Positions 4,277 through 7,545 of a stretch of DNA of 64,000 bases are shown here, one piece after another. Where the stretch lies: NCBI RefSeq assembly GCF_964244875.1, contig NZ_CAXTKA010000013.1:41577-105576 (forward strand), in the 5' to 3' direction. The number at the start of each line of letters is the position of its first letter. The first letter of the stretch is position 1. The notes beneath the pieces were generated by a model that was given only the letters and a program-made list of their open reading frames with translations, was not told the origin of the DNA and searched no databases. Position numbers and translations under genes: made by a program. This DNA is from an uncultured Devosia sp. GTDB lineage: Bacteria; Pseudomonadota; Alphaproteobacteria; Rhizobiales; Devosiaceae.

Positions 4277-4699
4277 TCAGAGCGCGCGCCTGCCCGGCGC
4301 GTTCAAGATGACCTCTCCATCTTCCTTGGTGAACGGGCCAATATCCGGGTTGGGCAGGATATCGAGCACGACTTCTGAAGGCCTGCAAAGCCGGGTGCCC
4401 TGCTGTGTCACCACGAAAGGCCGGTTGAGCAGGATTGGGTGCATGGCGATGGCATCGAGCAGCGCCGCGTCGTCCAGATGGGGATTGTCGAGGCCAAGGC
4501 CGGCGTAAGGGGTATCCTTCTGGCGCAGCGCCTGGCGCAGGGTCAGTCCGGAAGCCGCAACCAGACCTTTGATCGTGTCGCGGCCGGGCGGCGTTTGCAG
4601 GTAAAGGATGATCCTGGGTTCCTCGCCGGACTGGCGGATCATCGCCAGCGTGTTGCGGGACGTGCCGCAATCGGGGTTGTGGTAGATGGTGATTGTCAT
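4277..4699 (-). CDS. arsC: Arsenate reductase, glutaredoxin-dependent
   Basis: HNPDCGTSR catalytic motif and NRPFVV...RLCRP; C-terminal part of ORF 4277..5440; ATGA overlap with the aquaporin. Confidence 0.95.
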   Translation of the reverse strand: MTITIYHNPDCGTSRNTLAMIRQSGEEPRIILYLQTPPGRDTIKGLVAASGLTLRQALRQKDTPYAGLGLDNPHLDDAALLDAIAMHPILLNRPFVVTQQGTRLCRPSEVVLDILPNPDIGPFTKEDGEVILNAPGRRAL

Positions 4700-5385
4700 G
4701 ATGCAGCTTTCGTTTCGTCCATGGCCAGCCCCGGTCCGTGCAACAGCCAGGTCATCAGGGCCAGCCCCAGCAATGCACCGACCAGTTGAGCGGCGATGAA
4801 CCCGGGCAGGTCCAGCGGACGGATGCCCGAAAATGTGTCGGTCAGGGACCGAGCGATGGCCACGGCGGGATTGGCAAACGAGGTCGATGCGGTGAACCAG
4901 TAAGCAGCGGTGATGTAGAGCCCGACCAGCCAGGGGACGGCAGTCCGCTGGAAGCGCAGTCCGGCCAGAATGACGGTGACCAGGCCAAAGGCAGCTACGC
5001 CCTCGGAAAGCCATTGTGGCCCACCCGTGCGGACGTGTGTCGACACTTGCAGCACGGACTGGGCAAACATGAGATGCGCGGCCATCGTGCCGGTGACGCC
5101 ACCAATTACCTGAACCAGGATATAGAGCCCCGCGTCTGCCGTCTTCAGCTCTTTCCGAAGGGCAAAAACCCATGATATGGCGGGATTGAAATGCGCCCCG
5201 GATATCGGCCCAAATATGGTGATCAACACCACCAGAATAGCGCCCGTGGCGAGGGTGTTGGCAAGCAGTGCCAAACCCGAATCGGTGGTCAGTGTCTGCG
5301 CCATGATCCCCGAACCGACGACGGTGGCGACCAGCAACCCGGTCCCCAGACCTTCTGCCACCAGGCGGCGGGCCAGATTGCTCAT
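4696..5385 (-). CDS. MIP/aquaglyceroporin, AqpS-like arsenite channel
   Basis: Two NPA motifs (HFNPA, FANPA); lies between arsR and arsC. Confidence 0.9.
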   Translation of the reverse strand: MSNLARRLVAEGLGTGLLVATVVGSGIMAQTLTTDSGLALLANTLATGAILVVLITIFGPISGAHFNPAISWVFALRKELKTADAGLYILVQVIGGVTGTMAAHLMFAQSVLQVSTHVRTGGPQWLSEGVAAFGLVTVILAGLRFQRTAVPWLVGLYITAAYWFTASTSFANPAVAIARSLTDTFSGIRPLDLPGFIAAQLVGALLGLALMTWLLHGPGLAMDETKAAS

Positions 5386-5741
5386 GATGCGGCGGAGGTC
5401 GGTACGCGGCAATTTGCGGCCGTCTGGGCAGCCGGCGCACAAATCTCGGGTCGACCCTGGCAGCAATCCTCCATCAGGAAGGCGATGAGCCCGGCCAAGC
5501 CATCATAGTTGGCACAATAGATGATGGAGCGAGCCTCGCGCCGCGAGGTGATCAACCCAGCTCTTTCCAAGTGCGACAGATGAAACGACGCACTTGATGA
5601 GGAAGCGCGCACCGCAGCGCCGACGGCTCCGGCGGCCAGGCCATCGGGCCCCGCGACCACAAGGGTGCGGACCATCCTGAGTCGGGTTTGCTGCGACAAG
5701 GCACCAAACGCATTGAGGGCTTGATGTTCTTCCATTTTCAT
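5382..5741 (-). CDS. arsR: ArsR/SmtB repressor with C-terminal As(III) site
   Basis: wHTH SFHLSHLERAGLI; C-terminal CCQGRPEIC triad as in the A. ferrooxidans ArsR type; start may be 5735. Confidence 0.92.
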   Translation of the reverse strand: MKMEEHQALNAFGALSQQTRLRMVRTLVVAGPDGLAAGAVGAAVRASSSSASFHLSHLERAGLITSRREARSIIYCANYDGLAGLIAFLMEDCCQGRPEICAPAAQTAANCRVPTSAAS

Positions 5742-5770
5742 TTCAATATCTCAACAATAATTGAAATGAA
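5737..5770. promoter_or_regulatory. Perfect 11-12-11 inverted repeat, probable ArsR operator
   Basis: TTCATTTCAAT-N12-ATTGAAATGAA spans most of the divergent arsR/DUF6428 gap. Confidence 0.7.
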
Positions 5771-5782
5771 GGATATCCCATC

Positions 5783-6295
5783 GTGGACGGGCACGCCACC
5801 CCTCTTGTTCCGACCGACGCCTCGCTGGACCAGTTGCTGGCGGCGCTGGAAAGCCACGAGGCCAAGCTATTGGTCATCGACTACGCCGACCGACGCATCC
5901 AGCCCGGCTACCATGTTACCGAGGTCAAGGCGGGTTCCTTCGTCACGCTGGACTGCGGCGGCAACCCCGACGCCTGGCAGGAAACCGTGCTGCAGGTCGA
6001 GGATATTGCGGCCAGCGAGGGGCGCACCTTCATGACCGTGGCCAAGTTTTGCGGCATCCTCGTCCTGGTGGACCGCAAGGTGCGGCTCAACGGCGATGCC
6101 CGGCTGACCTTTGAGGTCAGCCGTCCGGGCGAACCCATGCAGGTGTTCGACGTCGCCGATGTCGCCATCGAAAACGAAACCGCCGTGCTGCGACTCGCAG
6201 CCCGTCCGGCCATCTGCAAGCCCCGTCACCGCGCAGAGCAGGAAGCGGCGGCACCGGCCTGCTGTGCACCCCATGGCAAAACGAGCTGCTGCTAA
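5783..6295 (+). CDS. DUF6428-like Cys-rich protein
   Basis: YHVTEVK...LDCGG...WQET.LQ motif; C-terminal CKP...CC...CC. Confidence 0.75.
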   Translation: MDGHATPLVPTDASLDQLLAALESHEAKLLVIDYADRRIQPGYHVTEVKAGSFVTLDCGGNPDAWQETVLQVEDIAASEGRTFMTVAKFCGILVLVDRKVRLNGDARLTFEVSRPGEPMQVFDVADVAIENETAVLRLAARPAICKPRHRAEQEAAAPACCAPHGKTSCC

Positions 6296-6318: not shown

Positions 6319-7545
6319 ATGACTTCGCGCATTCCGGCCCGCGCCATCTGGGCGTTGGGCGTGACCCAGATCATTGGCTATGGCACGCTCTACTATTCGT
6401 TCAGCGCGGTCGCACCGACGATCGGGCAGACCTTCGGCTGGCCGCCGGAATGGATTTTCGGCGCTCTGACCATAGCCCTGCTGGCTGGAGGATTGATTTC
6501 CCCCTTCAGCGGACACCTTGTCGACCGCTTCGGGGCCGCGCGCACGATGACAATCGGGTCCATAATCGCTGCCGCATCGCTGGCGCTGGCAGCGGTCGCT
6601 GCAGATGGGTATCTGTTTTCCGCCGCGCTGTTGCTGATGGAATTGGCCTCGACGCTGGTGCTCTATGCGGCGGCCTTTGCGGCGCTGGTGCAGCTCGGCG
6701 GCCGCACTGCGCAGCGCAGCATCACCCATTTGACGCTGATCGCCGGGTTCGCCTCCACCATCTTCTGGCCGCTTACTGCAACGTTGCTGTCCATTATGGA
6801 TTGGCGTGCCGTGTACGGAATATTCGCCGCCATCAACCTGTTGGTCTGTGCGCCGCTGCATTTCCGGCTGGGGCGGATGGGGACCGGCCTTGCCGGCGAA
6901 CCGGCAGGCGAGACCCTCAGCGATCCGAGCGCCGGGCCCGAAGGCGTTATGCCGGTAAACCGGCGTCGGATGGCTTTTGGACTATTGCTGTTCGGCTTCG
7001 CCATCGAAGGCTTCGTGCTCTCGGCCATTTTGCTGCAGATCGTTCCCATCCTGACCGCACTCGGCATGGGCAGCGGCATGCTGCTGGTAACGAGCCTGTT
7101 CGGGCCGGCCCAGGTGTTGTCGCGGCTAACCAACATGATGTTCGGCAAGGATTTTCCCGCGACCCGTCTCGGTATCGTCACGGCCTTGTTGCTCCCGGTG
7201 GGCATTGCGATCCTAGCGCTGACTGCACCATCGATTGCCTGGGCCGTCGCCTTCGCCGTGATGTTCGGCCTCGGCTCGGGTTTGACCAGCATCATATCGG
7301 GATCCTTGCCGCTCGAGCTTTATGGGCGCGAACGGTACGGCGCCAAGTTAGGATGGCTGTCCTCCGCCCGGCAGACGGCCTCGGCCGTCTCGCCCTTCAT
7401 CCTGGCCGTGGTGATGGGCCAGATCGGAGTGCCAGCGGCATTGTGGGCTACCGCCGGCATAGGATCGATTGCTATCGTCGTGTTCGCCGCCATAGCGGTG
7501 CTGGCCACTCATCCGGGAAAATGCAGGCGAGCACTGCTGCGGTGA
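6319..7545 (+). CDS. arsK: MFS arsenite/organoarsenical efflux transporter, ArsK-like
   Basis: N-terminus ALGVTQIIGYGTLYYSF, ITHLTLIAGFASTIFWP, about 12 TM segments, ars context. Confidence 0.8.
   Translation: MTSRIPARAIWALGVTQIIGYGTLYYSFSAVAPTIGQTFGWPPEWIFGALTIALLAGGLISPFSGHLVDRFGAARTMTIGSIIAAASLALAAVAADGYLFSAALLLMELASTLVLYAAAFAALVQLGGRTAQRSITHLTLIAGFASTIFWPLTATLLSIMDWRAVYGIFAAINLLVCAPLHFRLGRMGTGLAGEPAGETLSDPSAGPEGVMPVNRRRMAFGLLLFGFAIEGFVLSAILLQIVPILTALGMGSGMLLVTSLFGPAQVLSRLTNMMFGKDFPATRLGIVTALLLPVGIAILALTAPSIAWAVAFAVMFGLGSGLTSIISGSLPLELYGRERYGAKLGWLSSARQTASAVSPFILAVVMGQIGVPAALWATAGIGSIAIVVFAAIAVLATHPGKCRRALLR

What the first reader, a model, noticed from the sequence alone, without database searches (positions are those of the whole stretch)
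5783..6295. DUF6428-like Cys-rich protein as a candidate new arsenic/antimony resistance factor
Seen: it is the first gene of the arsK arm, directly under the putative ArsR operator. It has H-V-T-E, DCGG, CKP and two vicinal Cys pairs (CCAP...SCC). Known: vicinal Cys pairs bind trivalent As in ArsD, ArsR and ArsI. Inference: a metallochaperone, an As(III) buffer feeding ArsK, or an organoarsenical-modifying enzyme. I know of no functional characterisation.
Basis: partly seen in the sequence, partly recalled or inferred. Interest (0 to 1): 0.58.

Follow-up and report, generated by a model that had tools for sequence, protein, structure and literature searches.

The report
Uncharacterised cysteine-tailed arsenic-operon protein (DUF6428)
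This is a real, intact gene of the widespread but never-tested DUF6428 family. It sits almost everywhere beside the arsenic repressor ArsR, ends in conserved cysteine pairs and has no known fold, so it is a good candidate for a new arsenic-handling protein.

Summary
ORF 5783-6295 (+, GTG start, 170 aa) is a DUF6428/PF20001 protein with the HVTE, DCGG and CKP motifs and two C-terminal Cys-Cys pairs. It lies 41 bp from a divergent arsR-aqpS-arsC arm and 23 nt upstream of arsK.

The motifs define the family: 152 of 153 complete homologues keep them and at least one terminal CC. In 80 species genomes, 79 have a divergent arsR directly upstream. In 65 informative metagenome contigs (30-73% GC), 58 have arsR adjacent. 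A palindrome TCTCAA-N6-TTGA(G/A)A lies 11-43 nt (mostly 14-25) before the start codon in 79 of 81 loci; in the window it is at 5749-5766.

The link is to ArsR and ars operons in general, not to ArsK specifically. A downstream arsK is a minority layout, although it recurs in Deinococcus. Fusions to ArsN2 and to LMWP-type ArsC exist.

A confident AlphaFold model (pLDDT 90.8) matches nothing in the PDB. No functional study was found. One paper reports roughly 4-fold arsenic induction of a probable Deinococcus homologue.

Best reading (0.45): an ArsR-controlled cytoplasmic As(III)-binding buffer or chaperone. The main rival is a thiol-dependent enzyme.

The scan has flagged this family before on other DNA.

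The parts
4277..4705 (-). arsC, glutaredoxin-type arsenate reductase; last gene of the arsR arm
   Evidence: TIGR00014 133.8 bits (cut-off 106) and PF03960. It overlaps the end of aqpS by 10 nt.
4696..5385 (-). aqpS-like MIP channel (aquaglyceroporin type); the ATG at 5385 overlaps the arsR stop codon as ATGA
   Evidence: PF00230 MIP, E 1.3e-22. The start and overlap were read.
5382..5741 (-). arsR, an ArsR/SmtB repressor with a C-terminal CC-X6-C cysteine cluster
   Evidence: NF033788 56.2 bits (cut-off 55) and PF12840. The cysteines were read from the translation.
5737..5770 (.). Perfect 11-nt inverted repeat, TTCATTTCAAT-N12-ATTGAAATGAA, spanning the arsR start codon and the intergenic gap
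5749..5766 (.). Conserved operator-like core, TCTCAA-N6-TTGAAA; candidate ArsR binding site for both divergent promoters
   Evidence: A match with at most 2 mismatches lies 11-43 nt (mostly 14-25) before the DUF6428 start in 79 of 81 loci. The background rate is 0.0015 per 120 nt. Binding has not been shown.
5768..5773 (+). GAAGGA ribosome-binding site, 9 nt before the GTG start
   Evidence: Read.
5783..6295 (+). DUF6428 protein, 170 aa: a globular core (about residues 13-156) plus a C-terminal tail with two Cys-Cys pairs
   Evidence: PF20001 71.7 bits; alignment A1; AlphaFold2 pLDDT 90.8.
6319..7545 (+). arsK, MFS arsenite/antimonite/organoarsenical exporter, co-directional with a 23-nt gap
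   Evidence: NF033733 482.8 bits (cut-off 400). It is the only ArsK in the genome.

Best explanation
The gene encodes a soluble cytoplasmic protein of the ArsR regulon that binds trivalent arsenic or antimony, and possibly trivalent organoarsenicals, through thiols. The proposed mechanism has three steps. First, without metalloid, ArsR sits on the palindrome at 5749-5766 and shuts off both divergent promoters; As(III) releases it, and DUF6428 is made together with ArsK. Second, the C-terminal tail (CKP, a linker, then CC-X7-CC) catches As(III), probably together with the two conserved core cysteines C58 and C145. This lowers free As(III). Third, the bound metalloid is passed to whatever exit route the host has: ArsK here, Acr3 or AqpS elsewhere. 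Alternatively it is taken over from ArsC as that enzyme's product. Functionally this would be an ArsD-like buffer or chaperone for operons that lack ArsA/ArsD. Shown here: family membership, the ars/ArsR linkage, the conserved operator-like site, conservation of the cysteines, the fusions and the new fold. Inferred: metalloid binding, hand-off, and any effect on resistance.
For: 1. ArsR linkage. A divergent arsR lies directly upstream in 79 of 80 species genomes, which form 63 clusters at 90% identity. arsR is adjacent in 58 of 65 metagenome contigs with enough upstream sequence; their proteins are 23-66% identical to the window protein and the loci span 30-73% GC. Four of the 7 exceptions still have arsN1 or arsC downstream. 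Plasmids of Thermus, Deinococcus and Mucilaginibacter show the same pairing. 2. Operator. The conserved palindrome occurs in 79 of 81 loci. 3. Cysteines. C145 and C161 are invariant, and C58 and C160 are kept in at least 90%. Of 153 complete homologues, 152 have at least one CC in the tail, 96 have at least two, and 139 end in CC within the last three residues. 4. Fusions to different arsenic enzymes fit a portable binding module. ArsN2::DUF6428 occurs in Deinococcus. DUF6428::LMWPc, the ArsC type, forms an 89-member cluster, commonest in Planctomycetota. 5. No ArsD here. This genome is 99.5% complete and has no ArsD, Acr3, ArsB or ArsH, and only a P-loop fragment match to ArsA. Neither ArsA nor ArsD appears among the 25 commonest families (each with at least 2 members) in 148 unclassified neighbour ORFs. 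6. Self-sufficient modules exist: arsR-DUF6428 in Thermus oshimai and arsR-DUF6428-MFS in D. deserti. 7. Expression. A probable Deinococcus indicus homologue was reported about 4-fold induced by arsenic (PMC9807832). I made the identification myself, from the peptides that the paper's qPCR primers encode.
Against: No binding, resistance or expression data exist for this protein. The core carries many invariant polar residues (H44, T46, E47, D57, E67, Q71, K88, E111, K146). That is more than a simple thiol trap needs and looks like an active site or a specific ligand pocket. With 5-7 cysteines per 170 aa, capacity as a pure buffer would be low. Partner proteins vary between lineages, so there is no single hand-off target. 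I could not obtain the model coordinates, so it is untested whether C58, C145 and the tail can meet.
Confidence: 0.45

Rival explanations
1. It is an enzyme with a new fold that transforms an arsenical. One example would be a thiol-dependent reductase of arsenate or of pentavalent organoarsenicals, whose trivalent products ArsK can export. Another would be an arsenic-thiol transferase. In this reading C58 and C145 are catalytic, and the C-terminal CC pairs act as a mobile redox shuttle, as in the C-terminal tails of MerA and thioredoxin reductase.
For: Nine invariant or nearly invariant polar residues cluster on the long beta-hairpin 44-73 and around the CKP motif. The Asp-Cys pair in DCG is conserved. 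The tail usually ends in CC plus 0-2 residues. arsR-DUF6428 modules occur without any pump or reductase nearby. The fusion with LMWP-type ArsC could join two steps of one redox pathway. The comparison with the MerA and TrxR tails rests on my own knowledge.
Against: No cofactor-binding or known catalytic motif was found. There are no Pfam, PDB sequence or fold relatives. Most host loci already carry one or two ArsC genes. Fusion to unrelated enzymes (ArsN2, ArsC) fits a binding module better than a second catalyst.
Confidence: 0.3
2. It is a partner of ArsR rather than of a transporter. It could be an As(III) donor or sensor adaptor that tunes derepression, or a second-tier regulator, which is how ArsD was first described.
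For: ArsR is the only near-universal neighbour, whether divergent or immediately upstream on the same strand. Both proteins carry C-terminal cysteine clusters. Two-gene arsR-DUF6428 modules exist.
Against: No DNA-binding domain was detected. Seven of 65 metagenome loci lack an adjacent arsR. In Deinococcus the fusion form sits behind a MarR regulator instead. Lying next to the repressor gene is also simply where the first regulated gene of an operon lies.
Confidence: 0.1
3. It is unrelated to metalloids: a hitchhiking gene, or a general thiol-stress protein that happens to lie beside arsR.
For: There is no experimental link for this protein. A few marine AT-rich contigs carry it next to unrelated genes (L116 and L172).
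Against: The same neighbourhood recurs in Alphaproteobacteria, Deinococcota and Bacteroidota, and in metagenome loci of 30-73% GC. Fusions to ArsN2 and ArsC exist. The operator-like site is conserved.
Confidence: 0.03

Closest known systems
DUF6428 family (Pfam PF20001), e.g. WP_012092645 beside the ars cluster of Brucella (Ochrobactrum) anthropi ATCC 49188 (PMC13707694)
   Same: Same family by HMM score. Same divergent position relative to arsR. Same motifs and cysteine tail. That paper also calls the function unknown and cites CDART fusions to ArsI and ArsN.
   Different: Here arsK follows on the same strand, and the arsR arm is arsR-aqpS-arsC rather than arsR-arsC-arsC-acr3-arsH-arsK. The ArsI fusion mentioned in the paper was not seen in my searches. 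ArsN2 and LMWP-ArsC fusions were seen.
ArsD arsenic metallochaperone (PF06953)
   Same: Both are small cytoplasmic proteins encoded right after arsR. ArsD has vicinal cysteine pairs, including C-terminal ones, and binds As(III) for hand-off to an exporter (my own knowledge of ArsD). DUF6428 occupies the same operon slot in arsR-DUF6428-arsN-arsC-acr3 operons.
   Different: There is no sequence similarity (no PF06953 hit at E up to 5). ArsD was not among the fold matches. ArsD serves the ArsA ATPase, whereas DUF6428 loci and this genome lack ArsA/ArsD.
smtB-smtA divergent pair (an ArsR/SmtB repressor and the metallothionein it controls)
   Same: A divergent arrangement of an ArsR-family repressor and a cysteine-bearing metal-binding protein around a shared palindromic operator (my own knowledge of smtAB; window layout).
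   Different: SmtA is a 56-aa cysteine-rich zinc cluster protein. DUF6428 has a 130-aa conserved globular core and only 5-7 cysteines. There is no sequence relation.
C-terminal Cys-Cys tail of mercuric reductase MerA, and the C-terminal CC-X5-C site of the Acidithiobacillus-type ArsR
   Same: A flexible C-terminal vicinal cysteine pair that captures a thiophilic metal(loid) and delivers it to a buried site (MerA) or senses it (ArsR). This rests on my own knowledge.
   Different: The host domains are unrelated. The resemblance is an analogy only and was not tested here.

Membership tests
DUF6428 (PF20001) | Pfam HMM score above the gathering cut-off over the full domain | tested here: met
   71.7 bits against a cut-off of 28.7; residues 16-170 cover profile positions 2-155 of 155.
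DUF6428 (PF20001) | Family signature [YF]H[VIL]TE ... DCG ... W-x-E-x3-Q ... CK[PA] ... terminal CC | tested here: met
   All are present in the window protein. They are invariant or kept in at least 90% of alignment A1, and 152 of 153 complete homologues have them.
DUF6428 (PF20001) | Typical genomic context: adjacent to arsR within an ars locus | tested here: met
   In the window, arsR is divergent at 41 bp. The same holds in 79 of 80 genomes and 58 of 65 metagenome contigs.
ArsR regulon member | ArsR-type palindromic operator between the repressor gene and the target gene | tested here: met
   TCTCAA-N6-TTGAAA at 5749-5766 lies within a perfect 11-nt inverted repeat. It is conserved in 79 of 81 loci against a background of 0.0015 per 120 nt.
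ArsR regulon member | ArsR binding to the site and As(III)-dependent derepression | not testable with these tools
   This needs EMSA or footprinting and reporter or qRT-PCR assays. The only indirect support is the reported 4-fold induction of a probable Deinococcus indicus homologue (PMC9807832).
ArsD metallochaperone (PF06953) | Sequence membership in PF06953 | tested here: not met
   No PF06953 hit for the window protein or for any of the 72 aligned members at E up to 5.
ArsD metallochaperone (PF06953) | Thioredoxin-like fold with the N-terminal Cys12-Cys13-Cys18 site | tested here: inconclusive
   ArsD did not appear among the Foldseek or VIA matches, but absence from those lists does not exclude a fold. 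The N-terminal CC-X4-C motif is absent from the sequence.
ArsD metallochaperone (PF06953) | ArsA ATPase partner encoded with it | tested here: not met
   The genome gives only a non-specific P-loop fragment match to PF02374 (positions 8-44 of 305). No ArsA appears among the 25 commonest families (each with at least 2 members) in neighbour ORFs of metagenome loci.
Bacterial metallothionein (SmtA type) | Short cysteine-rich metal-cluster protein recognised by the Pfam metallothionein models | tested here: not met
   Only PF20001 is matched. Cysteine content across the family is about 3.6%.

The most novel reading that the evidence does not exclude
DUF6428 founds a new-fold class of arsenic-handling proteins. 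It would be either the missing cytoplasmic As(III) chaperone for secondary exporters and channels (ArsK, Acr3, AqpS), which have no known chaperone, or a new thiol-dependent arsenic enzyme. It is present in hundreds of species: at least 426 species genomes hold close relatives alone. It was seen in Alphaproteobacteria, Deinococcota, Bacteroidota and Planctomycetota, and it spreads on plasmids and genomic islands.
Probability: 0.4. Interest if true: 0.7.

Novelty: new variant of a known kind. Interest (0 to 1): 0.55.

Why it matters
Arsenic resistance operons are among the best-studied bacterial detoxification systems, and each newly assigned ars gene has revealed new arsenic chemistry. DUF6428 is one of the most consistently ars-linked genes that still has no function. 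It is the first regulated gene after arsR in many operon types. It carries a conserved cysteine tail, is fused to two different arsenic enzymes, and has a confidently predicted fold with no relative in the PDB.

If it is a chaperone, it would answer how pumps without an ATPase (ArsK, Acr3) receive As(III). If it is an enzyme, it adds a reaction to the arsenic cycle.

The five-gene locus in this window is a clean test case. ArsK is the only recognisable pump in a 99.5%-complete genome, so the arsK-alone versus both-genes comparison should be easy to read.

Tried and rejected
1. Known relatives by sequence. phmmer and profile hmmsearch against PDB sequences found nothing meaningful. Pfam at E up to 5 on all 72 aligned members gave only DUF6428. 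NCBIfam and PHROGs gave no hit.

2. Known fold. The best Foldseek PDB match had E 0.09. The best match in the VIA wide search had Z 3.1, where unrelated models usually reach Z 7-8. Six of its top ten matches are glutamine synthetase N-terminal domains, but at Z of about 3 I do not count this as a fold assignment.

3. Fused forms. Two 'longer' searches found only one fused form, a hydrolase-DUF6428 chimera on a 2-kb contig that may be an artefact. The ArsN2 and LMWPc fusions came from the representative search and the Atlas. The ArsI fusion cited in PMC13707694 was not seen.

5. Phage occurrence, claimed in an earlier scan note. The viral pattern scan gave 0 hits and PHROGs gave 0 hits. The claim was not reproduced here.

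6. Dedicated ArsK partner. Rejected as a general rule on the neighbourhood counts.

Distances between C58, C145 and the tail cysteines could therefore not be measured.

8. The literature searches for a characterised equivalent under another name found none.

Full report
**Observation**

The ORF at 5783-6295 (+) exists as described. It has a GTG start, 170 codons and a TAA stop. A GAAGGA ribosome-binding site lies 9 nt upstream. The translation shows GYHVTEVK, LDCGG, ICKPRH and the tail ACCAPHGKTSCC. It scores 71.7 bits against PF20001 (DUF6428), where the cut-off is 28.7, and covers the whole profile. No NCBIfam model names it. It has no hydrophobic N-terminus, so it is read as cytoplasmic.

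**Locus**

On the minus strand, arsR (5382-5741), an aqpS-like MIP channel (4696-5385) and a glutaredoxin-type arsC (4277-4705) form one arm with overlapping stop and start codons. On the plus strand, the DUF6428 gene is followed after 23 nt by arsK (6319-7545; NF033733 482.8 bits, above the equivalog cut-off of 400).

The 41-bp gap between arsR and the DUF6428 gene is AT-rich. It contains a perfect 11-nt inverted repeat at 5737-5770.

The genome is 99.5% complete. It has one DUF6428 gene and one ArsK. It has no Acr3, ArsB, ArsD or ArsH, and no real ArsA. This five-gene locus is therefore the only ars system I could recognise, and ArsK is its only pump. The best homologues are from Devosia, at up to 73% identity, so the host is probably a member of the Devosiaceae.

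**Family**

A word-based search found 845 proteins. An exhaustive search of 50%-identity representatives found 507, of which 211 had E at or below 1e-10.

In an alignment of 72 full-length members at 26-66% identity:
- T46, E47, D57, E111, C145, K146 and C161 are invariant.
- H44, C58, G59, W65, E67, Q71, K88, I92 and C160 are kept in at least 90%.

After the CK[PA] motif, every member has a low-complexity linker and one to three Cys-Cys pairs. Among 153 complete genes from genomes and metagenomes, 152 have at least one tail CC, 96 have at least two, and 139 end in CC within the last three residues. C90 of the window protein is not conserved.

**Neighbourhood**

In 80 species-representative genomes with close relatives (51-73% identity, all Alphaproteobacteria, 63 clusters at 90% identity), 79 have a divergent arsR directly upstream. 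ArsK is somewhere in the locus in most of them. It lies downstream on the same strand, as in the window, in only 8.

Ten of these loci are one segment of at least 20.5 kb that is 98.2-99.99% identical across several genera. They are not independent.

For an independent and broader sample I scanned metagenome contigs with a degenerate pattern for YH[VI]TE[VI]K-N21-DCG. The 80 contigs span 30-73% GC, and their proteins are 23-66% identical to the window protein.
- Of 65 contigs with at least 500 nt upstream, 58 have arsR adjacent: 24 divergent and 34 co-directional.
- Four of the 7 exceptions still have arsN1 or arsC downstream.
- The next gene downstream, in 59 contigs with at least 600 nt downstream, is ArsN1 in 18, LMWP-type ArsC in 17, ArsN2 in 3, ArsK in 1, and none or other in 20.

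Annotated plasmids agree:
- Thermus oshimai: arsR-hyp-DUF6428, with no other ars gene.
- Mucilaginibacter: arsR-DUF6428-arsN1-like GNAT-arsC-hyp-acr3 (the GNAT is best matched by ArsN1 family A but scores below its cut-off).
- Deinococcus gobiensis: arsN2-arsR-DUF6428.
- D. deserti: arsR-DUF6428-MFS.
- Agrobacterium Ti plasmids and Ensifer: arsK-arsR divergent from DUF6428.

**Operator**

The palindrome TCTCAA-N6-TTGA(G/A)A, allowing at most 2 mismatches, lies 11-43 nt (mostly 14-25) before the DUF6428 start in 79 of 81 loci. The background rate is 0.0015 per 120 nt. In the window it is TCTCAACAATAATTGAAA at 5749-5766, inside the longer inverted repeat. It is the obvious candidate for the ArsR site controlling both divergent promoters. 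Binding has not been shown.

**Fusions and pairings**

- P0218 and 20 cluster members from Deinococcus are ArsN2::DUF6428 fusions (NF040501 142 bits, cut-off 125).
- The ESM Atlas lists a 64-member GNAT-DUF6428 cluster and an 89-member DUF6428-LMWPc cluster, commonest in Planctomycetota.
- In D. ficus, D. aetherius and D. deserti, the DUF6428 gene or the fusion is followed, with overlapping or abutting codons, by an MFS transporter whose best NCBIfam match is ArsK. These score 88-102 bits, far below the cut-off, and the D. deserti one (the only one compared) is 34% identical to the window ArsK over its first 150 residues.

DUF6428 followed by an ArsK-like MFS thus recurs in a second phylum, but it is not the general rule.

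**Structure**

AlphaFold2 on alignment A1 gives pLDDT 90.8 and pTM 0.82. The model is an alpha+beta fold with a long hairpin (44-56 and 62-73) whose turn is the DCGG motif, a helix at 86-100, three further strands, and a helix at 146-156 that starts at CKP.

From the hairpin register I infer two conserved faces. E47, K49, E67, Q71 and W65 share one face. H44, T46 and D74 share the other.

The best Foldseek match against the PDB has E 0.09. The exhaustive VIA search peaks at Z 3.1. Sequence and profile searches of PDB chains find nothing. The fold is therefore unrepresented among solved structures, as far as these tools can see.

**Literature**

Only one held paper names DUF6428 (PMC13707694, 2026). 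It places the gene beside the ars cluster of a 50-kb alphaproteobacterial island, calls its function unknown, and cites domain fusions to ArsI and ArsN.

A study of Deinococcus indicus DR1 reports about 4-fold arsenic induction of a 'hypothetical protein CBQ26_01570' listed next to arsR1 (PMC9807832). Its qPCR primers encode TNRKFL and QYHVSH. These match the Deinococcus-type DUF6428 protein P0198, which has TNRKFL and, 38 residues later, QYHVTH. That gene is therefore very probably a DUF6428 member. This identification is my inference.

Other searches found no characterised equivalent under another name.

**Interpretation**

The safest statement, at about 0.95, is that this is an ArsR-controlled gene of the ars system. 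Thiol binding of trivalent metalloid is likely, at about 0.7. This rests on the invariant cysteines and on the known chemistry of vicinal thiols in ArsD, ArsR and ArsI.

Between binding protein and enzyme I lean towards a binding, buffering or hand-off protein (0.45), for four reasons:
- The domain is fused to unrelated arsenic enzymes.
- It sits in the operon slot that ArsD holds elsewhere.
- It occurs where ArsA and ArsD are absent.
- It works with varied exit routes.

The many invariant polar residues keep an enzymatic role very much alive (0.3). A role as an ArsR partner (0.1) would explain why ArsR is the one constant neighbour.

**Novelty**

The family and its ars association are already catalogued, and this scan has flagged it several times on other DNA. 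This copy is thus a typical member, in a minority arrangement with arsK.

What remains new to the field is any function, and a fold without solved relatives. I rate it a new variant of a known kind, namely ars accessory proteins, with moderate interest.

**Limits**

No coordinates, multimer predictions or experiments were available. My neighbour classification used exemplar-based tblastn and phmmer searches, so highly diverged ArsR genes may have been missed. That would make the ArsR counts lower bounds.

Noticed in passing
L040-L050 (all except L045; genome-contig loci), whole length: A segment of at least 20.5 kb carrying arsK-arsH-acr3-arsC-arsC-arsR/DUF6428 plus metal-resistance genes is 98.2-99.99% identical in Mesorhizobium, Aminobacter, Falsochrobactrum, Pseudochelatococcus, Aureimonas, Chelativorans, Paracoccus and Parvularcula assemblies. 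This indicates recent horizontal spread. It is probably the synteny block of PMC13707694.
   Followed up: partly
PMC9807832; P0198: The arsenic-induced 'hypothetical protein CBQ26_01570' of Deinococcus indicus DR1 is very probably a DUF6428 member. Its qPCR primers encode TNRKFL and QYHVSH, which match the Deinococcus-type protein P0198. The paper did not recognise the family.
   Followed up: partly
model of window 5783-6295; metagenome loci L100-L179: Six of the ten best (but weak, Z 2.5-3.1) structural matches are N-terminal domains of glutamine synthetase-family enzymes. The commonest downstream neighbour is ArsN1, which detoxifies the glutamine synthetase inhibitor arsinothricin. This may be coincidence and is unexplained.
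   Followed up: no
window 5382-5385 and 4696-4705: The arsR stop and the aqpS start overlap as ATGA, and aqpS and arsC overlap by 10 nt, so the arsR-aqpS-arsC arm looks translationally coupled. The ORF list's 387-aa ORF at 4277-5440 is arsC with a spurious upstream extension through aqpS.
   Followed up: no
whole genome G000: The 99.5%-complete genome has no Acr3, ArsB, ArsD or ArsH, and no real ArsA. ArsK and the AqpS-like channel are the only recognisable As(III) exit routes.
   Followed up: yes
L098:1888-2414 (Ensifer adhaerens plasmid): A 'GDCCVxC domain-containing (seleno)protein' and a DUF6494 protein lie between arsH and arsK near the DUF6428 gene. This is another small cysteine-motif protein in an ars neighbourhood.
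   Followed up: no
metagenome loci L100-L179, within about 4 kb of the DUF6428 gene: Several families recur among otherwise unclassified neighbours: TM2 domain (9), Acetyltransf_5 (8), Glyoxalase (8; possibly ArsI-like), DUF1801 (7), DUF4199 (5) and acyltransferases (5).
   Followed up: no
L096:3741-6965 and L221:3090-5754 (Deinococcus plasmids): In D. ficus and D. aetherius, the ArsN2::DUF6428 fusion and its ArsK-like MFS sit behind a MarR-family regulator rather than an ArsR. This recalls the MarR subfamily reported to regulate arsenic genes (bioRxiv 10.1101/2021.08.12.456183, listed).
   Followed up: no
Viral contigs; PHROGs: An earlier scan note says the family also occurs in phages. My degenerate-pattern scan of viral contigs and a PHROGs search of three members found nothing.
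   Followed up: partly
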